DNA of 20,000 nucleotides from an uncultured virus (IMG/VR IMGVR_UViG_3300042890_000801) (taxonomy: Duplodnaviria > Heunggongvirae > Uroviricota > Caudoviricetes): IMG/VR virus record IMGVR_UViG_3300042890_000801. The stretch is one strand, 5' to 3'. The notes below the pieces were generated by a model that had not been told where the DNA came from, ran no database searches, and saw nothing but the letters and a program-made list of their open reading frames with translations. Every line of letters starts with the position of its first letter. The stretch's first letter is position 1. Shown here piece by piece: positions 937 to 18,182 of the stretch. Both the position numbers and the translations under genes were made by a program.

Positions 937-1241
937 CACATCCTCTTTCTTATTTCTTCCATCAGCACAGTTTTTAGACTGTCTAAATTTTCCTCATTGA
1001 CTATCATAGCCACTCCACCAGCGTCCCTTATTCTTTGCAGTTCTCTGTCCTGTAGTGCTGTGGTCTTGCCCTTTCCTGCCTTTGCTTCGATACCGAAAAA
1101 AATGCCATGCAGACATCCGACGATATCGGGTACACCATTCTGTGAATAGGCACCGCCAATAGGGGAGAAACTGTAACATCCTAGCTCCTTGAGTATGTCT
1201 TTAATCTTTTTCTTGACTAATCCTTCTTTTGTTGTTGCCAT
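936..1241 (-). CDS. VRR-NUC domain nuclease (PD-(D/E)xK, Holliday-junction resolvase-like)
   Basis: E..VKKKI, GVPDIVGC, FFGIEAKA, TTALQ motifs; SD GAGGAGGT upstream. Confidence 0.9.
   Translation of the reverse strand: MATTKEGLVKKKIKDILKELGCYSFSPIGGAYSQNGVPDIVGCLHGIFFGIEAKAGKGKTTALQDRELQRIRDAGGVAMIVNEENLDSLKTVLMEEIRKRM
974..986. repeat. Palindrome TTAGAC-T-GTCTAA
   Basis: Inside the VRR-NUC 3' end, 37 nt upstream of the DNA polymerase start. Confidence 0.85.
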
Positions 1242-7118: not shown

Positions 7119-7418
7119 CTAAAATTTGTCGTCGTCAAGGATAGTTGGGAGGATGATGCTCTCTTCTACCGTATCTCTGCCTAAGCCTTCTTTCTCCATC
7201 GGGGACATGTTGATAAAGGTGGAGGGTTCTCCTTGTGGCGTAACCACATACCCACTAGCCGTTTCATTCACTGTTGTAATCTCATGCGTCCTCATGTCGA
7301 TCACATTGAAGCCATGTCCAGTCGGCTGCACATCAACAAGCCCGTCAGGGTGGAGCACAGTAAAAGCAGAAGCCAGTTGTCCGTAAACAAACAGCGAAGC
7401 AAGCATTAAAATTTTCAT
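7119..7418 (-). CDS. Hypothetical exported protein (99 aa)
   Basis: Signal-peptide-like N-terminus MKILMLASLFVYGQLASA/F followed by a beta-rich segment. Confidence 0.65.
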   Translation of the reverse strand: MKILMLASLFVYGQLASAFTVLHPDGLVDVQPTGHGFNVIDMRTHEITTVNETASGYVVTPQGEPSTFINMSPMEKEGLGRDTVEESIILPTILDDDKF

Positions 7419-7954
7419 GACATCAACACCTTTGCATCTATTTTAAGAAGTTTCATTAGCCCTTCGACTACAACCTTTCGTCCTGCATTGTACGCATCCC
7501 TGTGTGAGTGGAACATAGCATCGTTGTAGCCCTGACTATACCCCTGCTGGAACATGAAGCTCTTGGCGTTCTCTCCCTGCCTATCAATGTCGGATTCCTT
7601 GAGTGGCTGGCGCTTGGGGGTTACTACCGCTGCTTCCTCTTCAACTACTTCCTCTTCAACTACTTGCTCTTCAACTACTTGCTCTGCTGCCCCTGCAATT
7701 CGTACTACATAATGCTGGTTGTATTTTGTAAGGTAGGCATCAGGATGTAATACATAGCGAAGAATGCCATTACCTGATTCGTCCTCGATGATGCTTACCG
7801 TTTTATTATCTAGGAAAGTTTTTACGGCTTTGCGTACTTGTTCTCTGTTAAGTTTTGCTCCATTGGCAATCTCTTCTCGAGTAAGTTCTACTCCTCGCTT
7901 CTTCATATATTCAAAAACTTTAACGGCATTTGTTTTTGGCTTTGCCTTACTCAT
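7415..7954 (-). CDS. Hypothetical protein with N-terminal winged-HTH-like region and acidic repeat linker
   Basis: VFEYMKK..LTREEIANGAKLNREQVRKAVKTFL resembles an HTH; (EEQVV)n linker; start 7954 overlaps the upstream stop, SD GAGGA. Confidence 0.7.
   Translation of the reverse strand: MSKAKPKTNAVKVFEYMKKRGVELTREEIANGAKLNREQVRKAVKTFLDNKTVSIIEDESGNGILRYVLHPDAYLTKYNQHYVVRIAGAAEQVVEEQVVEEEVVEEEAAVVTPKRQPLKESDIDRQGENAKSFMFQQGYSQGYNDAMFHSHRDAYNAGRKVVVEGLMKLLKIDAKVLMS
7633..7685. repeat. 15-bp in-frame tandem repeat, about 3.5 copies
   Basis: CTTCCTCTTCAACTA x2, CTTGCTCTTCAACTA, CTTGCTCT; encodes EQVVEEQVVEEEVVEEE. Confidence 0.9.
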
Positions 7955-8148
7955 TGTTCTATCCTCATTTCGCATGTGTCTGTGTCTTTATCTATCAGGG
8001 TTTCGCAATACGAAGGTTTCCTCGTACTCATTGCCTCTATGTCTAACTCAATCTGGGTGTGCCTCCTGCATCCTTCTTTCTCATTGCATCCCTTACCGTG
8101 GCACCGTGTTACATCGTAAGGCAGGAATCGGAAGCTTCTCGTAACCAT
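7951..8148 (-). CDS. Small Cys-rich phage protein (DVTRC..C..C.R)
   Basis: LPYDVTRCHGKGCNEKEGCRRH; ATGA overlap with the next gene. Confidence 0.7.
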   Translation of the reverse strand: MVTRSFRFLPYDVTRCHGKGCNEKEGCRRHTQIELDIEAMSTRKPSYCETLIDKDTDTCEMRIEQ

Positions 8149-8241: not shown

Positions 8242-8264
8242 GATTTTTAGACGGTCTAAAAATC
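8242..8264. repeat. Palindrome GATTTTTAGAC-G-GTCTAAAAATC (11-bp arms)
   Basis: Core 8247-8259; overlaps the stop of 8256..8465. Confidence 0.95.
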
Positions 8265-8751: not shown

Positions 8752-9812
8752 GGTATCTCCTTTGGCCAAGGGGTATATCCGTCTGTCAATATCACAATCG
8801 CTTCCGGCTTGAGGTTGTTCTTCACAACGTAATCAAAGATCACACGCATGTCCGTACCGCCACCACCATGCAACTCTGTTATAGCCCCTAGCTGGTCTAG
8901 GGAACCTTGGTCGAAGACCTTGTGTGACTGTATGGTAGCGTCACACTCGATCAAATGCAACACCTCTGGCATAACAATGTTGCATATAGCCACAAACTCT
9001 GAGACGAAAGCAGATGCCACCGGCCCATTCACGCTGCCACTTGTATCCATCCCATTCACCAAAGACCCCATGCTCTCGCTGATGCTCGACGGCATGTACA
9101 AGTCCTCTCCCAACCATCTGCGGTTAGGCCTTCTCCATGTGCTGTCGTCATGCCCCTGAGATACAGAAGACATGAACTCACGCATCTGCTCACGCCAGTC
9201 GATCTTAGGAGCGGTTAACTCACCAATCAGCTTGCTCTCTTCGCCTCCCATCTTGCCAGCCATGAGAGCACCTTGACGAATAGCTTGGTCGATCTCTGCC
9301 GCAACTGCCTCCTTCTCCTCATCAGTTAGCTCATCGAAGTTATGTTCGTCAAAGCCCCCTCCTCCTTCCTCCCCCTGATCCTTCAGCCTACGGTACACTT
9401 CGCCTGTGTCCATCCCTCTGTACTGCTCGTCCACTAAGGCACAGTCAGGGAGTTTGGTGAAGTCTTTGTGCTTTTTAGACAGGTCTAAAATTTCGAGGTT
9501 GATAACGTAGTCTGCTGCCATGTTCGCTAGCTTAGCGTCCTCTTTCCACAGGTGCTTCCAGAGCCATGCGTGAGAGTATGCCTTATGAAGATTCTCGTGT
9601 AGTACCACGGCAGTGAGTTCAGCATCACTCAGCCCCTCTACAAACCCACGGCCATACATAACATCACGCCCATTAGTACATGCTGTAGGAATGTCATCCT
9701 GCACCGTACTTTCCCCCACCATGACCAGACCACTGAATGCCATCGTAGCCTGATGTGACATTAACCTTACGTGACTCTTCTGTATCCGTTGTTCTGCTGT
9801 TAAGTTCATCAC
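8676..9812 (-). CDS. Putative metallopeptidase plus VWA-like protein (DUF2201-like)
   Basis: TACTNG, HENLH (HExxH), NMAADYVIN, WRRPNRR, MIDAS DTSGS, HGGGGTD, ILTDGY. Confidence 0.9.
   Translation of the reverse strand: MMNLTAEQRIQKSHVRLMSHQATMAFSGLVMVGESTVQDDIPTACTNGRDVMYGRGFVEGLSDAELTAVVLHENLHKAYSHAWLWKHLWKEDAKLANMAADYVINLEILDLSKKHKDFTKLPDCALVDEQYRGMDTGEVYRRLKDQGEEGGGGFDEHNFDELTDEEKEAVAAEIDQAIRQGALMAGKMGGEESKLIGELTAPKIDWREQMREFMSSVSQGHDDSTWRRPNRRWLGEDLYMPSSISESMGSLVNGMDTSGSVNGPVASAFVSEFVAICNIVMPEVLHLIECDATIQSHKVFDQGSLDQLGAITELHGGGGTDMRVIFDYVVKNNLKPEAIVILTDGYTPWPKEIPCPTLWVITEKHITAPIGTTIHLEL
9473..9490. repeat. Palindrome variant TTTTAGAC-AG-GTCTAAAA (2-nt spacer)
   Basis: Inside the VWA gene. 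Confidence 0.8.
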
Positions 9813-10135
9813 TCTTCTCCTTTGATCTTGGCAAAATCTTGTGGACTCATCACTGTATCGTCCTCCTCTCTATCTTTTATCGCACATGCCCATGCTGTAT
9901 AGGTATCGTTGTCCACTCCTCGTGCATCGAAGGTAATATCTTTCACTACCTCGACGTTTCCGACTTCGTACTCCCTTAATGCGCTAAGCGTCCCTGCTCT
10001 ATGGTTCGCCGGGTATTGCATGTCTATTCTATGGGCATGTTCAGCTAACAATGCCTGCACCTTATGCGCCACTTCCAATGGCATGACTAGATCGTAGTAC
10101 CCGAAACTTATCTTACCCAGTATTTTCTTGTTCAT
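9809..10135 (-). CDS. Hypothetical protein (108 aa)
   Basis: Start MNKKILG at 10135 with SD GAGGAG; stop overlaps the VWA start. Confidence 0.7.
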   Translation of the reverse strand: MNKKILGKISFGYYDLVMPLEVAHKVQALLAEHAHRIDMQYPANHRAGTLSALREYEVGNVEVVKDITFDARGVDNDTYTAWACAIKDREEDDTVMSPQDFAKIKGEE

Positions 10136-10177
10136 TCTCGTACTCCTCGCCATGTAATAGGTCATCAACACATGTTT

Positions 10178-10190
10178 TTAGACCGTCTAA
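10178..10190. repeat. Palindrome TTAGAC-C-GTCTAA
   Basis: Intergenic, 3 nt after the stop at 10194. Confidence 0.95.
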
Positions 10191-10193
10191 TTT

Positions 10194-10523
10194 TTAGCAA
10201 TCAATAATATAAACCTTTCTGGCGGGGTCTACAGCGTTTACCCAAGCCCCCACCCCCTCGACATACCTATACTCTGGCAACATACGGATAAATATAAGCG
10301 CCTCTCTTTGCTTATCAGTTAACGTGTCTACATATTTCTCGGTGGCGGAGTAGGCTAAACTGATAAGCGCTGAATATGTACTGAATATTTCTTCCCTAGA
10401 AACCTCTTTTATTCTCAGAGTGTACATATCGACCACTTCCTTACCAATAATACCTATCCACAACAACTCCCGCTCTTCCATAGCCCACCTCAACTGAAAA
10501 GGAAAGAATTTTTTGAAGCCCAC
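10194..10523 (-). CDS. Hypothetical protein (start uncertain)
   Basis: Fills the gap after the AAA ATPase; alternative starts at 10481 and 10427. Confidence 0.6.
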   Translation of the reverse strand: MGFKKFFPFQLRWAMEERELLWIGIIGKEVVDMYTLRIKEVSREEIFSTYSALISLAYSATEKYVDTLTDKQREALIFIRMLPEYRYVEGVGAWVNAVDPARKVYIIDC

Positions 10524-11557
10524 GAAGTAAATCCCTTATGTGTCGTAGCAATACCTACCTTAGCTGACCGCATAATAGACCTAGCAAACAGCGCCTGCAC
10601 CTCCTTACCCATTCTCTGTACGTACACCATCCACGCATCGAACGTACCACGCTCAATCCTCTGCACTGCCTTGGCTACCATCATGCAACACGCCGCTGCA
10701 CCCTTGGGAATCTTGGTGTCCTCTGGGTTTTTAATCACAGCTTCCCACGATGGAAGCGTATCGTTAAGTTTTACAAGAGTGAGGATGTCCATCGCTGCGG
10801 CTTCGCCTACCACACCCATCAGTGCATGAATACGAACGTCATCGGGCAGGTTCTCGGTAGCTTTGAGCACATCGCTGGCCTTTTCCATGCCTCTATGCGT
10901 AACGAACGCTGTCCTCGGTGACTTAGGATGGTTGATGTAATGATTGGTATTCGGGTCTTCCACATTCTCAAAGCTCTCAAACATCTGAGGGAACTCAATA
11001 GCCGTACCAAGAATAGTAGGATGAATACCCGCATTGATGCCGTACACCTCTACCCACTCCATGCCTGTGTACTTTCTGATCTTTGCTTGGCACATTCTAC
11101 TTCTGGCATGTGCTGGTATGTTATCGCCCAGCCCTTCTATTGCTAGGTTTGTCGTAGCAAAGACAATGCTTCCTTCAGGCAAGGCGTACTTGCCAAGCTT
11201 TCTCTCGTGGATAATCCTAAGCAATGTGTTCATCACTGCCTTACTGCACTTGCCTAGCTCGTCAATCATCAATAGCACAGGCTGAGTCAAATGGAACCCA
11301 AGGTACTCATTAGGTAGGAATGACACAGAATCAGTACCTACCTTGGGCATCATGATGTCACCGACATCTAACAAAGGCGCATCCAAATATACCGGATGAT
11401 GCTCTGGGAATCTTTGCTTCAGCATACCCAGCATGGCGCTCTTGCCGATGCCCATTTCCCCACTGAAGAGGCATGTCACCTTATCACCCACAGCAGCTAC
11501 CAAGTCAGATGCCTGTGCCAGTGTGAGTGAACCGTAAGTCTTGTTAATCTTGCTCAT
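10490..11557 (-). CDS. AAA+ ATPase (MoxR/dynein-related type, VWA partner)
   Basis: Walker A GEMGIGKS, Walker B LLMIDELGK, sensor ATTN, ARSRM. Start placed at 11557 because a promoter (11616-11645) lies just upstream of the longer ORF start. Confidence 0.9.
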   Translation of the reverse strand: MSKINKTYGSLTLAQASDLVAAVGDKVTCLFSGEMGIGKSAMLGMLKQRFPEHHPVYLDAPLLDVGDIMMPKVGTDSVSFLPNEYLGFHLTQPVLLMIDELGKCSKAVMNTLLRIIHERKLGKYALPEGSIVFATTNLAIEGLGDNIPAHARSRMCQAKIRKYTGMEWVEVYGINAGIHPTILGTAIEFPQMFESFENVEDPNTNHYINHPKSPRTAFVTHRGMEKASDVLKATENLPDDVRIHALMGVVGEAAAMDILTLVKLNDTLPSWEAVIKNPEDTKIPKGAAACCMMVAKAVQRIERGTFDAWMVYVQRMGKEVQALFARSIMRSAKVGIATTHKGFTSWASKNSFLFS

Positions 11558-11561
11558 GTTT

Positions 11562-11574
11562 TTAGACCGTCTAA
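11562..11574. repeat. Palindrome TTAGAC-C-GTCTAA
   Basis: 4 nt before the AAA ATPase ATG. Confidence 0.95.
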
Positions 11575-11615
11575 ATATCCACCAAGTAAGGCTTGGCTCC
11601 TTCAACTGAGTATAT

Positions 11616-11645
11616 ATTATACTACGTTTTTTCTATCTTTGTCAA
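11616..11645 (-). promoter_or_regulatory. sigma70 consensus promoter TTGACA-N18-TATAAT (AAA ATPase operon)
   Basis: Plus strand ATTATA 11616-11621 and TGTCAA 11640-11645, intergenic. Confidence 0.85.
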
Positions 11646-11650
11646 TGCCC

Positions 11651-12523
11651 TCATACCAGACTGAACTTCTCCAGCAAATGATCCAGTTCCTTCTTCGTCT
11701 GCATACGAGAGCCTTCGTCTTTCCTCAAGTCCTTGGCATCACAATACTCGACGGTATTTCTCAACTCCCTTCTCATCTGCTCAATCTCTGGATCACCTGT
11801 TAGATTCAAGTCACCCATTGCATCGCATAGTTCAAGGCAAGTCTCAATCGTGCTCTCATGAACTCTTCCTTTTGTGCCATCAGGCTCGATGCGTAACTGA
11901 TTCGATAGCTTTGACACAGCATCCTTCACTCGATCTCTAACGTCCTGCATCGCGTCAGCTATGCGCTTCTCCTGCGCCTGCTCGAACTCCCAGCGTAACT
12001 GCTCCAGTCCTTCGTTACCAATATCAATGCGGAAATCACCCGACTCAGGCAATGGATAGATGTTGTAGTGCATCTGAAATTTGTGGCGAATCTCCGACAC
12101 GTCTGGGTAGTCGTCTACGTTGAACAACGCACCCAACTCGAACTGTGCCGACTGGATAATTGTTTTGTACTCTTTCTCGAACTCATCGACCAGTGCATCT
12201 CGAATACTCTGATGCTGTTGTAGCTCTTGCATGTAATCGAAGTAGCCTTTGGTGGGCAGCAAGCGCGGCCCCCGATCAGACCAAGGTAGAGTACGCGAGG
12301 CGTGCCATTGGCGAACCAACACATCCTGGCTCTGAATAGAAGCTAGTTCCTTGCAGTTAGCGAAGAGGTTCTTCTGATACGTCCCAGCACGGGACTTGGC
12401 GTGCTTGGCTCCTGCTACCTCATCGGACACAGCCCTATCTTGTTTCTTGCCTTGATACCCTTTTATGGTTAGATCGACCAGCATGGCACTGGATGAAATG
12501 GTTACGTTGTTTGCGTTGCTCAT
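11651..12523 (-). CDS. DUF3150-like phage protein (290 aa)
   Basis: SSSAMLVDL..KKQD, KNLFA, TLPWSDRGPRLLP, LGALFN..DYP, PESGDFR, LNLTGDP; SD GGAGA before ATG 12523. Confidence 0.75.
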   Translation of the reverse strand: MSNANNVTISSSAMLVDLTIKGYQGKKQDRAVSDEVAGAKHAKSRAGTYQKNLFANCKELASIQSQDVLVRQWHASRTLPWSDRGPRLLPTKGYFDYMQELQQHQSIRDALVDEFEKEYKTIIQSAQFELGALFNVDDYPDVSEIRHKFQMHYNIYPLPESGDFRIDIGNEGLEQLRWEFEQAQEKRIADAMQDVRDRVKDAVSKLSNQLRIEPDGTKGRVHESTIETCLELCDAMGDLNLTGDPEIEQMRRELRNTVEYCDAKDLRKDEGSRMQTKKELDHLLEKFSLV

Positions 12524-12540
12524 TGTGTTTCTCCAAAAAA

Positions 12541-12553
12541 TTAGACCGTCTAA
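12541..12553. repeat. Palindrome TTAGAC-C-GTCTAA
   Basis: Intergenic between the DenV-like and DUF3150-like genes. Confidence 0.95.
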
Positions 12554-12557
12554 AAAA

Positions 12558-13037
12558 TCACCACCAGTATGGTGGTGGCACACCTTTGCTCCACTGAGCG
12601 AAGTCTTTGGTGTGGTAGTAGGCACGGTATGCCTTCACTGGGTTTGGGTTACGAAACTCTTCCGGCATTGCCTGAGCAAATGACGTTGGGCCTATGTCTG
12701 GCAGTGTGCCGATCCACTCTTTACACTCTCTCACTATATCTTTGATGACCTCCCACGATTTGTGGTTGTGTTGCTTGCCGTACCTGATTCTGTACTGTGT
12801 GTTTAATTCTTTCGCATGTTCTGTCAGCCACCAGAAGTTGTCGATGCTGGCACGAGTCCAGATGGTACATGGATGGTTGAGGTGCGCTGTCTTATAAGGA
12901 GTGACTTGCTCTCCTGCCTTGTAGTTGAGTGCACTGCACAGCATTTGTGCCGACTCCAGTATCATCTTGTTGACGTGCTTATCGCACATCATGATTGCAG
13001 ATAGCCTAGGGTCGTAGTCGAGTACGAAGATGTTCAT
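12558..13037 (-). CDS. Pyrimidine-dimer DNA glycosylase / endonuclease V (DenV-like) family protein
   Basis: MNIFVLD..P, CDKHVNKMILESAQMLC, YKTAHLNHPCTIW, YRIRYGKQH, FAQAMPE, AYRAYY. Confidence 0.8.
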   Translation of the reverse strand: MNIFVLDYDPRLSAIMMCDKHVNKMILESAQMLCSALNYKAGEQVTPYKTAHLNHPCTIWTRASIDNFWWLTEHAKELNTQYRIRYGKQHNHKSWEVIKDIVRECKEWIGTLPDIGPTSFAQAMPEEFRNPNPVKAYRAYYHTKDFAQWSKGVPPPYWW

Positions 13038-13041
13038 AAAA

Positions 13042-13054
13042 TTAGACCGTCTAA
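13042..13054. repeat. Palindrome TTAGAC-C-GTCTAA
   Basis: 4 nt before the DenV-like ATG. Confidence 0.95.
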
Positions 13055-13097
13055 AAAGCCACTGCGTAAGGCGCAGCACCCTTGTCTCTTGGTATAT

Positions 13098-13127
13098 ATT
13101 ATATACCTTTTCTGTATCTTTTGTCAA
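13098..13127 (-). promoter_or_regulatory. sigma70 consensus promoter TTGACA-N18-TATAAT (DenV-like gene)
   Basis: ATTATA 13098-13103, TGTCAA 13122-13127. Confidence 0.85.
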
Positions 13128-13253
13128 GTGGGGTTAGCCTCCACCCCAAGGTCTACGGCATCGGGTGAGAGAGGGGCATGGAGCCGCAAAGTCCCAATCC
13201 GTAGATGACGTGGTTATTCAGCAAGTGGGCCACTCACGCCTTACGCCCTTTTG

Positions 13254-13445
13254 TTATTCTACGCTATCTTCTTCCTGTGCCAAGGCCCAGTCGCTTGCCA
13301 GCCTATCCAGCACAGCAACGTCTAAGTAGCCGCGTATGTCCTGCATGGTTTTCATGTCTACCACCTTTATTATGTACGGCTCCCCATAGATGAACTCGCC
13401 CTTCACATAGCACTCCTTCTCTTCTATGCCTATGTATGCTCGCAT
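13254..13445 (-). CDS. Hypothetical protein (63 aa)
   Basis: SD GAGGAG; TAATG coupling. Confidence 0.65.
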   Translation of the reverse strand: MRAYIGIEEKECYVKGEFIYGEPYIIKVVDMKTMQDIRGYLDVAVLDRLASDWALAQEEDSVE

Positions 13446-13669
13446 TACAATTCTCCTCTTTTCTCTGCCTCGGTCATTATGTAGTCTGCGTGGTCAGCCC
13501 AAATGCCAGCGTACACTTCCATTACTTCCTCGTCTGCATTGCCCGCTTCAACCAGCATACGAATGGTAGGATGATCGGGTTCGCCCTGCTCCTCCTCAAT
13601 GTCCAGATAGTCTGGGTCGCGTGGGTCGAGCCGAGAATAAAAACGTACTTCTGCTCTTGTCATGTTCAT
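13445..13669 (-). CDS. Hypothetical acidic protein (74 aa)
   Basis: SD GGAGGAGG; ATGA coupling. Confidence 0.65.
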   Translation of the reverse strand: MNMTRAEVRFYSRLDPRDPDYLDIEEEQGEPDHPTIRMLVEAGNADEEVMEVYAGIWADHADYIMTEAEKRGEL

Positions 13670-13944
13670 TGTGCCTCCTCCATTTTTAGACCGTCTAATT
13701 TTTGAAGCCAGTTGTTAAGCTCTTCCTGTGGCACACGCGCCGTCAATGGATAGCCCATCCTCTTCTTCCACTGGGTGATGTGCTTACTCGTTGTGACGCT
13801 CCACTTTCTATCTGTCTCAATGAACCCCAAGCCGGGGATATAGCCTGCCACAGGTGTGCTATATGATTGAAGGAACTGTGCGCCGTTCTCATAGGTCACT
13901 TCCCAAGCACTTTGTTTGTTTATTCTTTTCATTGTGTGTTTCAT
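13666..13944 (-). CDS. Hypothetical phage early protein (SYxTxVA..SxTTSKH motif)
   Basis: FLQSYSTPVAG..WSVTTSKHI; SD AGGAGA. Confidence 0.75.
   Translation of the reverse strand: MKHTMKRINKQSAWEVTYENGAQFLQSYSTPVAGYIPGLGFIETDRKWSVTTSKHITQWKKRMGYPLTARVPQEELNNWLQKLDGLKMEEAQ
13686..13698. repeat. Palindrome TTAGAC-C-GTCTAA
   Basis: In the 3' end of 13666..13944, just upstream of the next SD. Confidence 0.95.
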
Positions 13945-13954
13945 TGTTCTTCTC

Positions 13955-14161
13955 CTATAGTTCTACTACGATCCAGTCCTTGCCCTGCTCTATATAGCAT
14001 GTGCAGGCATTGCCAAAGCACGGGGCATACACACGCCGCAGTCTATTGTTGTGTTTCACCATGTACCGTGTTGGGATTCTTCTACCATAGCCGGAGGCGT
14101 TGGCATACCGCACGGGCTTTTCAACACAAAAAGGGAAATAAATTCTGTCTACAATAGCCAT
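13955..14161 (-). CDS. Hypothetical phage early protein (SGYG..IPT..RRVY motif, 68 aa)
   Basis: Start MAIVDR at 14161 after SD GAGGAG. Confidence 0.7.
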   Translation of the reverse strand: MAIVDRIYFPFCVEKPVRYANASGYGRRIPTRYMVKHNNRLRRVYAPCFGNACTCYIEQGKDWIVVEL

Positions 14162-14165
14162 TGCC

Positions 14166-14471
14166 TTACTCCTCAAACCCAAAGTTCTGTTTCTCTTCAT
14201 CACTCATAAGCTCGTCGCACAGCGCCCACAAGTCGCCATCTTGGTACAGCCTCCAGACGTACTCGCCCTCTCTATACTCCGCCTTATTGAGTATCTGGTC
14301 CCATGCTTCCCAATAGTCATGGTTGTCTGGTCCTTCTGCACAGGTGTTAGCCGCCCAAGACTCAGGGTCTATGCTCCACTCGGTAATGTCACAATTAGCA
14401 ACAAAGTCACGGGGGATATACTGCCCACGCGCATCGCTCAACAGGCACTCAACTGCATCTAACTTGCTCAT
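14166..14471 (-). CDS. Hypothetical phage early protein (101 aa)
   Basis: SDARGQYIPRDF..YWEAWDQIL..LYQDGDLW; SD GGAGAG; downstream of tandem promoters. Confidence 0.75.
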   Translation of the reverse strand: MSKLDAVECLLSDARGQYIPRDFVANCDITEWSIDPESWAANTCAEGPDNHDYWEAWDQILNKAEYREGEYVWRLYQDGDLWALCDELMSDEEKQNFGFEE

Positions 14472-14486
14472 CTTATCTCTCCGTTT

Positions 14487-14499
14487 TTAGACCGTCTAA
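14487..14499. repeat. Palindrome TTAGAC-C-GTCTAA
   Basis: In the 5' UTR of 14166..14471. Confidence 0.95.
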
Positions 14500-14558
14500 T
14501 TTGTCGGTCTGTGTCTACTGCATGGGGTGCAGCGCCCTGTCTTCTCGACTTGGTATAT

Positions 14559-14588
14559 ATTATATACCTTTTTTCTACCTTTTGTCAA
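14559..14588 (-). promoter_or_regulatory. sigma70 consensus promoter TTGACA-N18-TATAAT
   Basis: ATTATA 14559-14564, TGTCAA 14583-14588. Confidence 0.85.
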
Positions 14589-14600
14589 GCCAACGGCTTT

Positions 14601-14613
14601 TTAGACCGTCTAA
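14601..14613. repeat. Palindrome TTAGAC-C-GTCTAA
   Basis: Between tandem promoters, 12 nt upstream of a -35 box. Confidence 0.95.
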
Positions 14614-14657
14614 ATATGTGCCGTCCTTGGCCTTTCTTCCTTCACTTCATGGTATAT

Positions 14658-14686
14658 ATTATATATGTTTTTCCTATCTTTGTCAA
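14658..14686 (-). promoter_or_regulatory. sigma70 consensus promoter TTGACA-N17-TATAAT (tandem with the previous one)
   Basis: ATTATA 14658-14663, TGTCAA 14681-14686. Confidence 0.85.
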
Positions 14687-14687
14687 G

Positions 14688-14987
14688 TCACCAGTCGTAG
14701 CCGCTGGCGTCTAAGTTATTTATGCGATTGTCATAAGGTATTTTGTTTATGTGCGTGATTCGTTTTGGCACAGGGGCTCCGTAGTACCATAGCCATGCCA
14801 GCTTGTGTGCGGCATGTGTTCCTCCACACAAATTTATAAAGACACCCCCTTTGGCATTCTCCTTACCTGCGATATCCCCGCGCTCTCTACCGTGACTTCT
14901 GTCGTCCTGTGCCCAGCGGAACTCTCCGGTGTACTCGTCATAGTCCAGCACTGAATGTAGATACGCCTGTGTTAGCTCTTTCTTCAT
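14688..14987 (-). CDS. HNH endonuclease-like protein, C-terminally shortened
   Basis: LTQAYLHSVLDYD..TGEFRW, AHKLAWLWYYG, THINK..DNRINNL, then a stop 7 residues later. Confidence 0.75.
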   Translation of the reverse strand: MKKELTQAYLHSVLDYDEYTGEFRWAQDDRSHGRERGDIAGKENAKGGVFINLCGGTHAAHKLAWLWYYGAPVPKRITHINKIPYDNRINNLDASGYDW

Positions 14988-14988
14988 A

Positions 14989-15771
14989 TCATACTCCTTT
15001 CATCAAACTTATTTTCATGGGTTGGTATAAATCCGTTGTCTCTACGCTGTACATGCTTCGTTCTATATGTGCTCCTGTTTGTGTTACGTCTATCTTCCAC
15101 GGCACTTGCCCCGGTATTAGTATCCCCGCCTCGAACTTGTCCAGCACCTCCATCATGGTTGTCTTTGTTACGATATGGCTCCCCCCATCCTCTGGCATGG
15201 TGCCCCAATAAGCACGGGTATTGTCTATGATGGCTTGTGGCAGGGGGGTTAGCCCGTTGCTGTCTCTCCACCCAATGTCTCGCACTCGGAGATTGTTTTT
15301 TGCTGGGGCATTGCCCCTCGCCGCGTCGATAACGCCCGCCATGTACCGAGAGTATGACTCTTTGTAAACTCTGTAGTCCCACGTATATTTGACATCGTAA
15401 GGTGCGTTCACCCACTTTTTGAGCGATGGGCAGGGGACAATGTAATACTGAAGGGCGTCATTGTTGCTACCTTCTACGAACAATCCAACAGGACTCACTC
15501 CACGCGGTACAGCTTCCAAATTTAGCTTCTTTGTACGCGAAAAACCACAACGCCTGAAATCCCCGTTCAACATACCGGCATGGATGAACATGTCTATTTC
15601 TGGTAGGTACAAACTATGATTGATAGGAGTTGTGGTTTTTGGGTGCTTTTCCTCATTTTTAGACGCGTCTAAAAATTTCAACATCGCCGCTTCTATATAA
15701 GGAGTGAGGAGGGGCACAAGGGCTTGTGCGAGGGTGTGGAGTTTGGCATTTTCGTCTGGTTGGTGGGTCAT
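14989..15771 (-). CDS. Hypothetical protein (260 aa)
   Basis: Long ORF, SD GGAG, own candidate promoter; no family recognised. Confidence 0.7.
   Translation of the reverse strand: MTHQPDENAKLHTLAQALVPLLTPYIEAAMLKFLDASKNEEKHPKTTTPINHSLYLPEIDMFIHAGMLNGDFRRCGFSRTKKLNLEAVPRGVSPVGLFVEGSNNDALQYYIVPCPSLKKWVNAPYDVKYTWDYRVYKESYSRYMAGVIDAARGNAPAKNNLRVRDIGWRDSNGLTPLPQAIIDNTRAYWGTMPEDGGSHIVTKTTMMEVLDKFEAGILIPGQVPWKIDVTQTGAHIERSMYSVETTDLYQPMKISLMKGV
15655..15676. repeat. Perfect 22-bp palindrome ATTTTTAGAC-GC-GTCTAAAAAT (2-nt spacer variant)
   Basis: Inside the 260-aa gene. Confidence 0.85.
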
Positions 15772-15863
15772 TGTTAGCTCCGTTATTTGTGTTGAAAAAT
15801 GGGTGTAATAATCATAATGTTATGAAAGTGTTTTGGGCCTCCTGTTTGTTTGAAGGTTGGGGA

Positions 15864-15892
15864 AGGGTACAGCAAAAAAATTGGAGTGTCAA
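15864..15892 (-). promoter_or_regulatory. Candidate promoter TTGACA-N17-TACCCT
   Basis: TGTCAA 15887-15892, AGGGTA 15864-15869; upstream of the 260-aa gene. Confidence 0.45.
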
Positions 15893-16020
15893 GGAAAATA
15901 ACAAACAAGAAGCGCAAAACACAATCATAACATATTATGAAAGTGAGGAGGAAAATTGGGGCGGGATTGGTGTATTAGGAAAGGCTAATGTCAGGAGCGA
16001 CGCGGGTTGTGGAGAGAGCG

Positions 16021-16149
16021 TTATGTTAGTTAGTATTATTACGTTAGTTATACCAGATTTAACTCTAATAGTATAGAACGCTACGAAAAATGGACACCCG
16101 AGGAATCATCACTTGGGGAGCTAATCCTGACATAACTAACATAATAATA
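16021..16149. repeat. AT-rich inverted/direct repeat cluster (TTAYGTTAGTTA x3)
   Basis: 16034-16051 versus 16132-16149 inverted 17/18; further copy at 16021-16032. Confidence 0.8.
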
Positions 16150-16319
16150 ATAATAACAATAACAAAAGAAAAATTAGAAAATAAAAATCCCCAACCAAAA
16201 AACCAATTAAGATTTTTTCTCCTCCCCCTCCCGACCCGTGCCCCTCCCCAGCCCTTCGGCCTAGTTCCGTAGAAAGAAAACTGGCTTCAAAAATTTAGAC
16301 GTCGAAAACCTTCGGGCGC

Positions 16320-16345
16320 AAAAAAGCCCCGCTCCAGCGGGGCTT
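16320..16345 (-). terminator. Rho-independent terminator
   Basis: Minus strand AAGCCCCGCT-GG-AGCGGGGCTTTTTT, downstream of 16411..17181. Confidence 0.85.
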
Positions 16346-16351
16346 GATGGG

Positions 16352-16414
16352 TTACAGACCTGATGCTAGCAACAGCAACAGGAAAACTAGATATGCCTTG
16401 ACTTCATCGCTCAT
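16352..16414 (-). CDS. Possible 20-aa hydrophobic peptide
   Basis: MSDEVKAYLVFLLLLLASGL; ATGA-coupled to the upstream gene and ending just before the terminator. Confidence 0.4.
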   Translation of the reverse strand: MSDEVKAYLVFLLLLLASGL

Positions 16415-17181
16415 GCCTTGCCCCCCTTGCCGTTTAACATCACGTCGCGGGCCTCAACCAAACAACGTGTCACTATGGCGACGCTAGAATCTAAGCACAT
16501 TGCCAGAATAGGCGCGAACTCACTACGAAAAGCGTCGTTCTTGAAGAGCTGATCTAGCAAAATGGTGCAGTGCTCCCTAGGGCTAATGGGAGGCTCACTA
16601 TCGCCCGCTACATTGGGCCTCACTATCTCACCCTTGACCGCATCCTTTTGCGCCGCTACGGGCTTTGCAGAGGCCGCTTTGGAGGGTTCTTGTACGATGG
16701 GTGGGATTAGACTATCCACAGCCTTTTGAAAGGCCTCCAACTTTGCCGGTGGTGTGGGTGCCGCATCCGTCTGTGGGCTAGGAGTTTCTTCTTTAGGTTT
16801 ATGCACCTTTCCATAGGTGTTAGGCACGACAACCCCGGACCATGAAATCCACGTCTCACGCTTGCGCAGTCTGTCAGCGTTTTGCTCAGTAGGTAGAATT
16901 TTGTACTCGAAACTTGTTTTCAGTACGCCAAGCAGTCCATCAACATCTTTCACCTCAGCGGCGATAATCGCCGCCTTTATATCCTTGCCCAACTTTGTCC
17001 ATTTGTCATCCTTGTGTTCCTTGAAGAACGGCACGATAGCCTTTCTCAATTCACTGTTTGCCGATACTAAACCCGCCTGTTCCTCCTTGAGCGCGGCAAT
17101 CCTTACAGCATTGCCAGAGTATGCGAGACAATCGGTAACGAAAGCCTCAACGGGGGAAAGTTCTTTTACTTGTGCGTTCAT
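16411..17181 (-). CDS. Hypothetical protein (256 aa), first gene of the leftward arm
   Basis: Helical N-terminus, Pro/Ala-rich linker; preceded by two sigma70-like promoters and followed by a terminator. Confidence 0.75.
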   Translation of the reverse strand: MNAQVKELSPVEAFVTDCLAYSGNAVRIAALKEEQAGLVSANSELRKAIVPFFKEHKDDKWTKLGKDIKAAIIAAEVKDVDGLLGVLKTSFEYKILPTEQNADRLRKRETWISWSGVVVPNTYGKVHKPKEETPSPQTDAAPTPPAKLEAFQKAVDSLIPPIVQEPSKAASAKPVAAQKDAVKGEIVRPNVAGDSEPPISPREHCTILLDQLFKNDAFRSEFAPILAMCLDSSVAIVTRCLVEARDVMLNGKGGKA

Positions 17182-17249
17182 GCTTGTGTCTCTCAATCAA
17201 AACCCGCGTAACCGACGCGGTTCGGTGGCTGGTTTTCCAGCGTGGCCAT

Positions 17250-17279
17250 AGAATATCACTAACTTTTTTCGATTGTCAA
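17250..17279 (-). promoter_or_regulatory. Promoter TTGACA-N18-TATTCT with extended -10 TG
   Basis: TGTCAA 17274-17279; minus strand TGATATTCT. Confidence 0.7.
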
Positions 17280-17290
17280 CCCAGTATTTT

Positions 17291-17303
17291 CTAGACCGTC
17301 CAA
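17291..17303. repeat. Degenerate palindrome CTAGAC-C-GTCCAA
   Basis: 2 mismatches, T/A-tract flanks; between tandem promoters, 11 nt upstream of a -35 box. Confidence 0.65.
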
Positions 17304-17338
17304 AAATCGAAGCGCCTTTAAAGGTATTTAATACTTAT

Positions 17339-17368
17339 ATTATACCATACTTCTAGCGATGAAGTCAA
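17339..17368 (-). promoter_or_regulatory. Promoter TTGACT-N18-TATAAT with extended -10 TG
   Basis: AGTCAA 17363-17368; minus strand TGGTATAAT. Confidence 0.7.
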
Positions 17369-17580
17369 CGTAAGTGATTGATTTACAAGGGAATAGGGCT
17401 GAACAAAGTCGCAAACGATACCCCACCGTACCCGGAGCCCCCGCTGTGTGGATAGGAGTCCCGTGGTGTATGTAGACTATGTTCCATAGCCGCAAATGCC
17501 AAAATTTTTGCAAAAAGTGACATCGAATAACCCCACCCCCTGAAGGGAAATTTTTCTAGCGTAGGAGTCCCTACCTCCCC

Positions 17581-17609
17581 TTGCCTTTATTTTTTTGTTG
17601 TGATATTTT
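17581..17609 (+). promoter_or_regulatory. Candidate rightward promoter TTGCCT-N17-TATTTT with extended -10
   Basis: TTGCCT 17581-17586, TGATATTTT 17601-17609, 30 nt before the small terminase ATG. Confidence 0.5.
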
Positions 17610-17639
17610 AGCGCCTCTGGTTCTCATACCTGCTGATAT

Positions 17640-18182
17640 ATGGAAGATTTTGATCTACTGCGTGACCATCCCGAGGCAGATGCCTATCTGCTGTCGTTTG
17701 ATATTATCTTAGAGTTCTTGGACGTTCCGCCAAGTGCCGCTCTGTTCTTGCCCCCTGAACCAGATCGCGTGTTAACACGCCAAGAGAAAGAGTGGGTGCG
17801 AGAGGCAAAGAAAAACCCGGACAATGCAGATATCATCAACAATCCACCTTCGGCTCCAGCGCTTCGTGCCATACAAAAACAACTCGAAACGTACAATGGC
17901 CCCATGCCGGTCACGAAGGAGCAATGGCAGAATTACATCATGAAGCAATATTTCACGATGACCAAAGATGCCGATCCAAAGGTAAGTAAGCCCGCGTTAG
18001 ACGCACTGGCAAGAACCAATATCGTGGGCCTGCACACAGACGTGCAGGAGATAAATATCAACACACACTCCACCATCGAACTCGAAGCAACGCTAGCGCA
18101 GAAACTGCAGCAGATAATAAGTAAGAAGAACCTACCCGTCGAAGAAGAGCCTATCGAAGCAGAGTGGAGCGAAGCCGAGTGA
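17640..18182 (+). CDS. Probable terminase small subunit
   Basis: Position immediately before and coupled (GTGA) to the large terminase; D.DPKV..ALD.LA..VGL.T..EINI pattern. Confidence 0.65.
   Translation: MEDFDLLRDHPEADAYLLSFDIILEFLDVPPSAALFLPPEPDRVLTRQEKEWVREAKKNPDNADIINNPPSAPALRAIQKQLETYNGPMPVTKEQWQNYIMKQYFTMTKDADPKVSKPALDALARTNIVGLHTDVQEININTHSTIELEATLAQKLQQIISKKNLPVEEEPIEAEWSEAE

What the first reader, a model, noticed from the sequence alone, without database searches (positions are those of the whole stretch)
11555..14588. Repeated cassette: promoter, covarying CCYYA hairpin, palindrome, start codon
Seen: three leaders share one layout on the mRNA strand. AAGGAG-CCAAG-CCTTA-CTTGG-TGG (11582-11596), AGGGTG-CTGCG-CCTTA-CGCAG-TGG (13062-13076) and AGGGCG-CTGCA-CCCCA-TGCAG-TAG (14518-14532) each lie 19-26 nt downstream of a perfect TATAAT and are followed by TTAGACGGTCTAA. 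The stems differ at three pairs (copy 1 vs 2) and one pair (copy 2 vs 3), yet every change is compensatory. All extend by a G-U pair only on the transcribed strand, which favours an RNA structure. Established: the lambda nut boxB is a 5-bp stem/5-nt loop hairpin near the promoter, and promoter/stem-loop cassettes (PeSL) are described in T4-type phages. Inference: a possibly undescribed antitermination, translational-control or mRNA-protection element, which may also act as a gene-shuffling cassette. Best candidate for a new system in this window.
Basis: partly seen in the sequence, partly recalled or inferred. Interest (0 to 1): 0.9.

Follow-up and report, generated by a model that had tools for sequence, protein, structure and literature searches.

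The report
Phage early-gene cassette with conserved RNA hairpin
An uncultured phage drives several early genes from a repeated control cassette made of a strong promoter, a small conserved RNA hairpin and a 13-base palindrome; the hairpin matches no catalogued RNA family, and what the hairpin and the palindrome do is still unproven.

Summary
On the window's minus strand, three leaders (11555-11650, 13035-13132, 14469-14593) share one layout. A perfect TTGACA/TATAAT promoter is followed by a 6-bp hairpin with a CCYYA loop, then TTAGACGGTCTAA, then the ATG. A fourth copy (14595-14691) is decayed.

In relatives the hairpin keeps its loop while the stem changes: 12 distinct stems, 60 of 60 cells paired, and all 6 pairs changed on both sides. 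The sixth pair is G-U on the sense strand only, so the structure is RNA. An RGG tract just 5' of the stem complements the loop in 14 of 14 copies. This suggests a small pseudoknot.

The 13-mer is a separate element. It occurs 8 times exactly in the window and only in the early/replication region. Related phage lineages carry a different palindrome at the same position.

It is not a lambda nut site: the loop is pyrimidine-rich and no boxA is present. It is not a classical PeSL. No Rfam family matches.

Best reading: a promoter-linked cassette whose hairpin acts after transcription on the downstream start, plus a lineage-specific operator. Function is inferred; no expression data exist.

The parts
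11616..11645 (-). Promoter P6: TTGACA-N18-TATAAT, followed by the conserved ATATAC
   Evidence: 12 of 12 consensus positions. The spacer is conserved among cassette copies.
11599..11602 (-). AAGG tract of cassette a, complementary to loop CCUU
11581..11597 (-). Hairpin a: G-CCAAG / CCUUA / CUUGG-U
   Evidence: present in both the MFE and the centroid fold.
11562..11574 (-). 13-mer palindrome TTAGACGGTCTAA, 4 nt before the ATG
10490..11557 (-). MoxR-like AAA ATPase gene. ATG at 11555-11557; no Shine-Dalgarno sequence next to the ATG
   Evidence: The N-terminus is conserved in relatives.
13098..13127 (-). Promoter P5: TTGACA-N18-TATAAT
13130..13147 (-). Stem-loop GGGGU...ACCCC immediately upstream of the -35 of P5 (the PeSL-like part)
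   Evidence: Read. The same sequence is present in G001.
13061..13077 (-). Hairpin b: G-CUGCG / CCUUA / CGCAG-U, with tract AAGGG at 13079-13083
   Evidence: One search also flags it as terminator-like.
13042..13054 (-). 13-mer palindrome, 4 nt before the ATG at 13035-13037 (gene 12558-13037, phrog_624)
14559..14588 (-). Promoter P4: TTGACA-N18-TATAAT
14517..14533 (-). Hairpin c: G-CUGCA / CCCCA / UGCAG-U, with tract GGG at 14535-14537
14487..14499 (-). 13-mer palindrome, followed by GGAGAG (Shine-Dalgarno) and the ATG at 14469-14471 (gene 14166-14471)
14595..14691 (-). Decayed fourth cassette: promoter P3 (14658-14686), tract kept, stem lost, palindrome at 14601-14613 enclosed by GCCAAGGACGGC...GCCGUUGGC
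13686..13698 (-). 13-mer palindrome without promoter or hairpin, lying in the 3' end of ORF 13666-13944 and before the Shine-Dalgarno sequence of the next gene
12541..12553 (-). 13-mer palindrome after the terminator-like hairpin 12559-12580 and before the Shine-Dalgarno sequence of the 290-aa gene
10178..10190 (-). 13-mer palindrome before gene 9809-10171
8242..8264 (-). 13-mer with centre C on the sense strand, extended to a 23-bp perfect palindrome. The site is conserved in G001 and G005
974..986 (-). Near copy with centre A, before the DNA polymerase start. The G004 copy at this site is exact
17291..17303 (-). Near copy (2 mismatches) between the first two early promoters, 12 nt upstream of a TTGACA

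Best explanation
The region holds paralogous copies of a composite early-gene expression cassette. The phage is uncultured, about 60 kb long and probably virulent.

(1) Promoter. A consensus sigma-70-type promoter starts the transcript. This is shown only as sequence; the start site is inferred.

(2) Hairpin. The leader RNA carries a 6-bp hairpin. Its loop (CCYYA) and its 5' RGG tract are conserved while the stem is free to covary. The RGG tract complements the loop, so the element may fold as a compact H-type pseudoknot. I infer that it acts after transcription on the cistron downstream. It could be a translational operator or enhancer read by a phage or ribosomal factor. In the two Shine-Dalgarno-less leaders of the window it could help present the distal AAGGAG-like tract to the AUG.

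(3) Palindrome. The 13-bp TTAGACSGTCTAA is a separate element that is recognised by its sequence. Most likely it is an operator bound as double-stranded DNA by a lineage-specific dimeric phage regulator that times early and middle gene expression.

My odds:
- Real selected cassette and RNA hairpin: about 0.9.
- Hairpin acts on translation or mRNA fate rather than antitermination: about 0.55.
- Pseudoknot forms: about 0.4.
- Palindrome acts as DNA operator: about 0.45.
For: Anatomy and chance:
- Searches give the layout and the chance expectations.
- The cassettes are homologous. The invariant parts are the -35 box, the -10 box plus ATATA, the GG of the tract, the CC of the loop and the 13-mer. 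Stems and linkers have diverged. The identity of the 13-mer and the loop therefore reflects selection, not recent copying.

Hairpin:
- 60 of 60 cells pair and 6 of 6 pairs change on both sides. 0 of 500 shuffles and no slid register come close. RNAalifold predicts the same structure.
- The sixth pair is G-U in 6 copies, C-G in 2 and U-A in 2. The pairing therefore works only on the sense strand.
- Further stems come from three sources: the leader of the helicase gene of the same phage, a metagenome group and two distant lineages.
- In the metagenome scan, 48 distinct matches contained CCTTA-N9-20-13mer. Six had 6 or more flanking pairs, and all six follow a TTGAC-type promoter. One had 5 pairs and 41 had 2 or fewer.

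Tract and loop:
- At least 3 contiguous Watson-Crick pairs form in 14 of 14 copies. Random 10-mers give 1.5 of 14. Permuting the tracts among copies gives P = 0.007.
- CCU loops go with AGG and CCC loops go with GGG.

Position:
- Copies lie 15 to about 70 nt upstream of start codons.
- In L120, L121 and the helicase leader the hairpin ends 2 to 8 nt before the Shine-Dalgarno sequence.

Palindrome:
- The phage's remaining 23 kb has no copy, and neither does its structural module.
- Each related lineage has its own palindrome in the same region, including at one orthologous intergenic site with conserved flanks.
- The centre base is only G/C in some lineages and only A/T in others, in both orientations. 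This is what two-fold symmetric reading of duplex DNA predicts.
- Flanks are A/T-rich but usually do not extend the helix, so the RNA hairpin would be weak.

Precedents, as passages read in PMC3014915: the T4 gene 32 leader pseudoknot, the gp43 hairpin operator, and the split Shine-Dalgarno sites of genes 25 and 38 (spacing 27 reduced to 11 nt, and 22 reduced to 5 nt).
Against: - There are no expression data. Start sites, processing and translation effects are all inferred (searches gave nothing usable).
- Copies are paralogs or orthologs, so the counts are not independent events.
- Some copies were found by scans biased towards the result. L120 and L121 came from a scan that required pairing. 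L170 and L180 came from a scan that required tract-loop complementarity. The helicase copy came from the model built on the others.
- Pseudoknot sterics are doubtful. The connecting loop would be only 1-2 nt across a 3-4 bp stem, and the extra helix is weak.
- The whole leaders are not unusually stable (z from +0.85 to -2.25).
- The covariance model found no further copy in the other loci of the 654 kb searched. The motif is therefore confined to a few lineages or has diverged beyond the model.
- No regulator was identified. A weak winged-helix candidate (7415-7975) is absent from G002, which uses the same 13-mer.
- Evidence for an RNA-level or start-site role of the palindrome:
  - In 6 of 6 Shine-Dalgarno-less starts the AUG lies exactly 3-4 nt after the 13-mer.
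  - In G002 the 13-mer is flanked by covarying RNA hairpins on both sides.
- SD-like tracts also occur in leaders that have their own proximal Shine-Dalgarno sequence (L200 group and G001 c). The split-SD idea therefore cannot be the general function.
Confidence: 0.45

Rival explanations
1. The hairpin is a nut/boxB-like site for processive antitermination. A small phage protein binds the loop on the nascent RNA and makes RNA polymerase read through downstream terminators into the long replication operon.
For: - It is a small hairpin with a conserved pentaloop and a variable stem, just downstream of three strong early promoters.
- A terminator-like hairpin lies inside the operon at 12559-12580.
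- The replication genes downstream have no consensus promoter of their own.
Against: - The loop is pyrimidine-rich, not the purine-rich boxB type (boxB loop recalled).
- No boxA-like motif lies on the sense strand near any leader.
- Copies sit 2-8 nt before a Shine-Dalgarno sequence. The helicase leader has no evident promoter upstream, while L121 has a perfect TATAAT and L120 a weak candidate.
- No conserved arginine-rich early protein was found. The only Arg-rich candidate, the 82-aa ORF, is missing from G001 and G002.
Confidence: 0.12
2. The hairpin, with its SD-like tract, is an mRNA stabiliser or processing barrier. It protects the leader and downstream message from 5'-end-dependent decay and has no specific partner.
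For: - It lies in the 5' UTR.
- An SD-like purine tract sits near the inferred 5' end in the promoter-proximal copies.
- Stabilising 5' elements of this kind are known in bacteria and phages (recalled).
Against: - A conserved loop sequence and tract-loop covariation are not needed for a simple barrier.
- The hairpin starts about 12-20 nt from the inferred start site, not at the 5' end.
- Intercistronic copies exist.
Confidence: 0.15
3. The 13-mer is not an operator. It is either a phage-specific promoter or start-site element, or an RNA processing site. Either would yield leaderless or short-leader mRNAs.
For: - In 6 of 6 Shine-Dalgarno-less starts the AUG lies 3-4 nt after the 13-mer (G000 x2, G001 x3, G010 x1).
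- Where a Shine-Dalgarno sequence is present, it usually begins within about 10 nt of the 13-mer, further in the G002 leaders.
- The 13-mer plus 3-4 A/T bases has the length of a single-subunit polymerase promoter (recalled geometry).
- The sites precede many genes that lack a sigma-70 promoter.
Against: - No RNA polymerase was found in the phage or in five relatives. The searches were PF00940 (whose controls did not ring, so the test is weak), PHROGs and PDB for the 2480-aa virion protein.
- The site is a perfect palindrome used in both orientations with all genes on one strand. This is odd for a directional promoter.
- Some sites lie upstream of a -35 box.
Confidence: 0.2
4. The hairpin plus the following U-run is a leader attenuator, that is, an intrinsic terminator.
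For: - flags 13060-13078 as terminator-like.
- In five of the eight cassette copies that have the hairpin, a U-run begins 3-9 nt after the stem.
Against: - The U-run belongs to the flank of the palindrome and is separated from the stem.
- The c-type leaders and the L120, L121 and helicase copies have no U-run.
- The stem is only 6 bp.
- A conserved loop is not expected of a terminator.
Confidence: 0.05
5. The cassette is only a recombination linker of the PeSL type. Its conserved parts reflect concerted evolution, not a function of the hairpin.
For: - The same cassette fronts different genes in G000 and G001 and in four metagenome contigs.
- A related contig diverges from the window exactly upstream of the -35 of P6, at 11649.
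- PeSLs are described as composite terminator/promoter repeats linked to indels (PMC4122927: abstract and passages).
Against: - Concerted evolution would homogenise the stems. Instead the stems are the most variable part and always compensate.
- The hairpin also occurs without the promoter or the palindrome.
Confidence: 0.05

Closest known systems
Lambda nut site (boxA + boxB) and N-type antitermination
   Same: - A small leader RNA hairpin with a five-base loop.
- The loop is conserved and the stem varies.
- It is placed downstream of early promoters.
   Different: - The loop is CCYYA (pyrimidine-rich) instead of the purine-rich boxB loop (recalled).
- No boxA is present.
- The stem is 6 bp, with a sense-only G-U pair.
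- Copies lie directly before ribosome-binding sites.
- No N-like protein was found.
PeSL (promoter-early stem-loop) cassettes of T4-type phages (PMC2839356, PMC4122927)
   Same: - Repeated, promoter-linked modules in an early region.
- They are associated with gene replacement and indels.
- Two of the four window promoters are also preceded by a stem-loop (13130-13147, and the one around 14601-14613).
   Different: - In PeSLs the stem-loop is the terminator part of a composite terminator/promoter (passages read).
- Here the covarying hairpin lies downstream of the promoter in the leader.
- It has a conserved loop and a complementary 5' tract.
- It is joined to a lineage-specific palindrome.
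T4 translational leader elements: gene 32 pseudoknot, gp43 hairpin operator, split Shine-Dalgarno sites of genes 25 and 38 (PMC3014915, passages read)
   Same: - A compact pseudoknot or hairpin upstream of an A/U-rich stretch and the start codon.
- In two window leaders an SD-like tract lies 39 nt from the AUG with foldable RNA in between. About 11 nt remain once both helices are subtracted, the same figure as for T4 gene 25.
   Different: - There is no sequence relation.
- The element is repeated before several unrelated genes.
- The partner is unknown.
- The second intervening helix (the 13-mer) is weak as RNA.
Dispersed phage operators: mycobacteriophage stoperators (PMC9283540, PMC6550527, abstracts); P1 C1 operators and phiC31 conserved inverted repeats (recalled)
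   Same: - Many identical 13-17 bp sites in short intergenic regions of the transcribed early region.
- The site sequence changes between related phage lineages.
   Different: - Stoperators are asymmetric, orientation-bound and read by a monomeric repressor of temperate phages.
- Here the site is a perfect palindrome in both orientations.
- The phage has no detected integrase or prophage relatives.
- No repressor is known.
T7 promoter / RNase III site pairs (recalled)
   Same: The order is promoter, conserved hairpin, ribosome-binding site, repeated before several genes.
   Different: The helices here are 6-9 bp, far too short for RNase III substrates.

Membership tests
Lambda-type nut site | boxB hairpin with a purine-rich GNRA-like pentaloop | tested here: not met
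   The loops are CCUUA, CCCCA or CCCAA in all 12 five-base-loop copies. The boxB loop composition is recalled.
Lambda-type nut site | boxA (8-nt NusB/NusE site; PMC3177189 abstract) a few nt upstream of boxB | tested here: not met
   YGCTCTTWA with up to 1 mismatch gave 14 matches against 16.8 expected. None lies on the minus strand near a leader. The consensus typed was recalled.
Lambda-type nut site | A cognate N-like arginine-rich early protein | tested here: inconclusive
   No family hit. The Arg-rich 82-aa ORF is not conserved in G001 or G002.
PeSL cassette | Composite terminator stem-loop plus early promoter, repeated in the genome | tested here: inconclusive
   Stem-loops precede 2 of 4 promoters. 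The covarying hairpin of the finding lies downstream of the promoter, which is not the PeSL layout (PMC4122927 passages).
PeSL cassette | Indels and gene replacements bounded by the cassettes | tested here: met
   - There is an extra gene after cassette b in G001.
- The same cassette fronts four different starts in the L200 group.
- A related contig breaks away at 11649.
H-type RNA pseudoknot | Two helices with crossing strands, both supported by covariation | tested here: inconclusive
   - Stem 2 is strongly supported.
- Stem 1 (RGG with CCY) is complementary in 14 of 14 copies, and the AGG/CCU versus GGG/CCC match gives a permutation P of 0.007.
- However, stem 1 is only 3-4 bp and few independent events support it.
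H-type RNA pseudoknot | Loop lengths that can span the grooves | not testable with these tools
   L1 of 1-2 nt across a 6-bp stem is usual. L3 of 1-2 nt across 3-4 bp is at or below the usual minimum (recalled rule). No pseudoknot energy model or probing was available.
Dispersed operator / stoperator-like system | Many identical sites in the transcribed region, with lineage-specific sequence | tested here: met
Dispersed operator / stoperator-like system | A cognate DNA-binding regulator that binds the sites | not testable with these tools
   No regulator was identified.
Any Rfam family | A score at or above the gathering threshold | tested here: not met
   0 matches at gathering thresholds. 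The best sub-threshold match was SpR08 at 25 bits against an 80-bit cut-off.

The most novel reading that the evidence does not exclude
Hairpin and palindrome together form a phage-private translation-initiation code.
- The RGG/CCY pseudoknot alternately hides and presents a distal Shine-Dalgarno-like tract.
- The 13-mer sits at a fixed 3-4 nt from start codons that have no Shine-Dalgarno sequence. It stands in for that sequence in one of two ways: a lineage-specific phage factor bound to it recruits ribosomes, or cleavage or initiation there makes leaderless mRNAs.

The phage would thus switch a set of early and replication genes on or off independently of host signals.
Probability: 0.12. Interest if true: 0.85.

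Novelty: new variant of a known kind. Interest (0 to 1): 0.62.

Why it matters
- It adds a well-supported structured RNA motif to the short list of phage leader elements. The motif is uncatalogued and has 12 covarying stems, a fixed loop and a possible pseudoknot.
- It shows that a large family of uncultured phages of about 60-66 kb marks its early genes with palindromes that are swapped between lineages at the same genomic position. That pattern suggests that a regulator and its site evolve together, as in immunity systems, but here in phages with no sign of lysogeny.
- Both elements are short, portable and easy to test in reporters.
- The cassette could serve as a compact expression module.
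- It offers a handle on how such phages time early and middle genes without a recognisable RNA polymerase of their own.

Tried and rejected
- RNA evidence. No RNA holder was listed for 9800-17700. The two runs laid were contigs with small shares and gave no starts or ends.
- Rfam. There was no match at gathering thresholds, and only SpR08 far below its threshold.
- tRNA scan. None found.
- Named phage relatives. There was no near DNA match, and only one 100-nt distant match. The ATPase is at most 23% identical to proteins of cultured, mostly N4-like phages.
- Phage RNA polymerase:
  - PF00940 was absent from 5 relatives, but the control genomes did not ring either, so this is weak.
  - PHROGs gave no RNA polymerase hit.
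  - The 2480-aa virion protein matches only FtsK-gamma in PDB.
- Regulator hunt:
  - ESM Atlas was uninformative for the 261-aa and 260-aa early proteins.
  - The 186-aa protein gives only sub-threshold winged-helix hits and no PDB hit. It is absent from G002, so I rejected it as the common binder of the 13-mer.
- Prophage or host search in genome contigs found no relative.
- Covariance model R1 found no extra copy in other lineages.
- A wider alignment (A3) was misaligned by MAFFT and was not used for a second model.
- Near copies of the 13-mer are too few (4 hits, 3 distinct sites, over 8 sequences) to use wobble patterns for deciding between RNA and DNA.
- I rejected the split-SD idea as the general function. 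SD-like tracts also occur where a proximal Shine-Dalgarno sequence exists.
- I dropped two apparent Shine-Dalgarno-less starts in G002 (9008, 9618). The ATGs are not in frame with a long ORF.
- Earlier-findings look-ups by place, by sequence and by relatives returned nothing.

Full report
**Setting**

The window is the reverse strand of a 26,975-base viral contig that is about 43% complete.
- Early and replication genes lie on the window's minus strand. They include HNH endonucleases, a MoxR-like ATPase with a VWA partner, thymidylate synthase, MazG and DNA polymerase A.
- The terminase and downstream genes lie on the plus strand beyond 17640.
- No tRNA and no Rfam family is present.
- No cultured phage is close.
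- The ATPase defines a large family of uncultured phages, some with complete 64-66 kb genomes and terminal repeats.
- No relative was found in 185,579 bacterial species genomes, so the group is probably virulent.

- Four perfect TTGACA-N17/18-TATAAT promoters lie on the minus strand, against 0.01 expected.
Then come the 13-mer TTAGACGGTCTAA and the start codon.
- The stems are 6 bp long once the G-U pair is counted.
- An alignment of the cassettes shows that they are homologous copies.
  - The -35 box, the -10 box plus ATATA, the GG of a purine tract, the CC of the loop and the 13-mer are invariant.
  - Stems and linkers differ.
  - The fourth cassette (14595-14691) has lost its stem.

**The hairpin is a selected RNA structure**

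The 13-mer led to relatives G001 and G002 and to near-identical contigs.
- Of 9 leaders that run from a consensus promoter to the 13-mer, 8 carry a hairpin with a CCYYA loop. This listing was made without regard to pairing.
- Ten aligned copies give 60 of 60 paired cells. All 6 pairs change on both sides. No shuffle out of 500 and no slid register approaches this. RNAalifold predicts the same fold.
- The sixth pair is G-U, C-G or U-A, which pairs only on the sense strand.

More stems came from several sources:
- The leader of the helicase gene of the same phage.
- Two relatives that use a different palindrome (L120 and L121). There the hairpin ends just before the Shine-Dalgarno sequence.
- A metagenome scan. 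It held 48 distinct matches to CCTTA-N9-20-13mer. Six had at least 6 flanking pairs, and all six follow a promoter. 41 had 2 or fewer. This serves as a built-in negative control.
- A looser descriptor scan, which found two lineages with longer loops (CCUUUA and GCCUUUGACU).

Caveat: L120 and L121 were found by a scan that required pairing, and many copies are orthologs or paralogs.

**A possible pseudoknot**

An RGG tract lies 1-2 nt (4 in L170 and L180) upstream of the stem.
- It complements loop positions 1-3 in 14 of 14 copies. Random 10-mers do so in 1.5 of 14.
- CCU loops pair with AGG and CCC loops with GGG. Permuting the tracts gives P = 0.007.
- The strand order is that of an H-type pseudoknot with a 1-2-nt first loop.
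- The last loop would be only 1-2 nt, and the extra helix is short, so I treat this as a candidate only.

**Where the hairpin sits**

- All copies are on the sense strand, 15 to about 70 nt before a start codon.
- Three window copies are promoter-proximal. Others are intercistronic or directly abut the ribosome-binding site.
- Two window leaders (ATPase and the phrog_624 gene) have no Shine-Dalgarno sequence near the AUG. They do have AAGGAG or AAGGGUG 39 nt upstream, with the hairpin and the 13-mer in between.
- Subtracting both helices leaves about 11 nt. This is the figure reported for the split site of T4 gene 25 (PMC3014915, passage).
- SD-like tracts also occur in leaders that have their own Shine-Dalgarno sequence, so this cannot be the general role.

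**The palindrome is a second, independent element**

- It occurs 8 times exactly in the window, plus 2 near copies.
- It occurs 8, 8, 7, 2 and 2 times in five related contigs.
- It is absent from the remaining 23 kb of the same phage and from its structural genes.
- It also precedes genes that have neither promoter nor hairpin.
- Every related lineage has its own repeated palindrome in this region.
- At one orthologous intergenic site with conserved flanks, four lineages carry four different palindromes.
- The centre base is restricted to a complementary pair (G/C or A/T), in either orientation, while all genes share one strand.
- The flanks are A/T-rich but rarely extend the helix.

These features fit duplex DNA read by a symmetric dimer that co-evolves with its site. 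The pattern is comparable in kind to dispersed phage operators such as stoperators (PMC9283540 and PMC6550527, abstracts), although those are asymmetric.

Against a purely DNA-level role:
- In 6 of 6 Shine-Dalgarno-less starts the AUG lies 3-4 nt after the 13-mer.
- In G002 the 13-mer is flanked by covarying RNA hairpins.

A promoter or processing role therefore stays open. No phage RNA polymerase was detected, but those tests are weak.

**Comparison with known systems**

- It is not a nut site. The loop composition differs and boxA is absent (PMC2724277 and PMC3177189, abstracts).
- It resembles PeSLs as a repeated promoter-linked module that bounds gene replacements. The covarying hairpin, however, is downstream of the promoter, not the terminator part (PMC4122927, passages; PMC2839356, listing and abstract).
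- The exact 13-mer is in no paper of the searched library.
I did not test it.

**Verdict**

This is a real, selected, composite cassette. The RNA hairpin is a new motif. The lineage-specific palindromes are the broader finding. The mechanisms are inferred, with the odds given under the best explanation.

Noticed in passing
L195:6201-13643 (same phage as the window, contig G010): A 2480-aa virion-type protein. It has N-terminal tape-measure/lysin-like hits and an FtsK-gamma-like winged helix at about residues 940-999. No polymerase domain was detected.
   Followed up: partly
window 7951-8148 (minus): A 65-aa Cys/His-rich protein lies just downstream of the 23-bp extended palindrome. Homologs were detected only in the four lineages that use the TTAGAC palindrome (G000, G001 98%, G005 64%, G002 53%). 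In G002 no palindrome precedes it.
   Followed up: partly
L106 about 10890-10910, 11538-11558 and 13829-13849: In G002 a second hairpin follows the 13-mer directly. It is 7 bp with a triloop, shows compensatory and G-U changes among its three copies, and lies before the Shine-Dalgarno sequence.
   Followed up: no
window 12559-12580 (minus): A terminator-like hairpin with a U-run overlaps the stop codon of the phrog_624 gene and lies just before a 13-mer.
   Followed up: no
window 14500-14516 (minus): The c-type leader holds a degenerate second copy of the palindrome (AGACCG at 14505-14510). It can pair with the 3' half of the true 13-mer and is conserved in G001.
   Followed up: no
window 11649: A contig of a public run matches 11157-11649 and then runs on unlike the window. 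The break is exactly upstream of the -35 of P6 and looks like a mosaic joint at the cassette border.
   Followed up: no
loci L122-L129, L141, L145-L168: In many other lineages of the family the commonest repeated word is GTTTAAAC. In the ATPase leaders read (L145, L153) it lies between the Shine-Dalgarno sequence and the ATG (AGGAGTTTAAACACCATG). Start regions are highly uniform within a genome.
   Followed up: no
window 14688-14987 (minus): An HNH endonuclease gene sits immediately upstream of the tandem promoters P3 and P4. Two further HNH or Hjc-like nuclease genes are in the window.
   Followed up: no
window 17204-17220 (minus): The leader of the first early gene holds a GC-rich hairpin followed by GUUUUGAUUG, between promoter 17252-17279 and the ATG at 17181. 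This is a possible attenuator.
   Followed up: no
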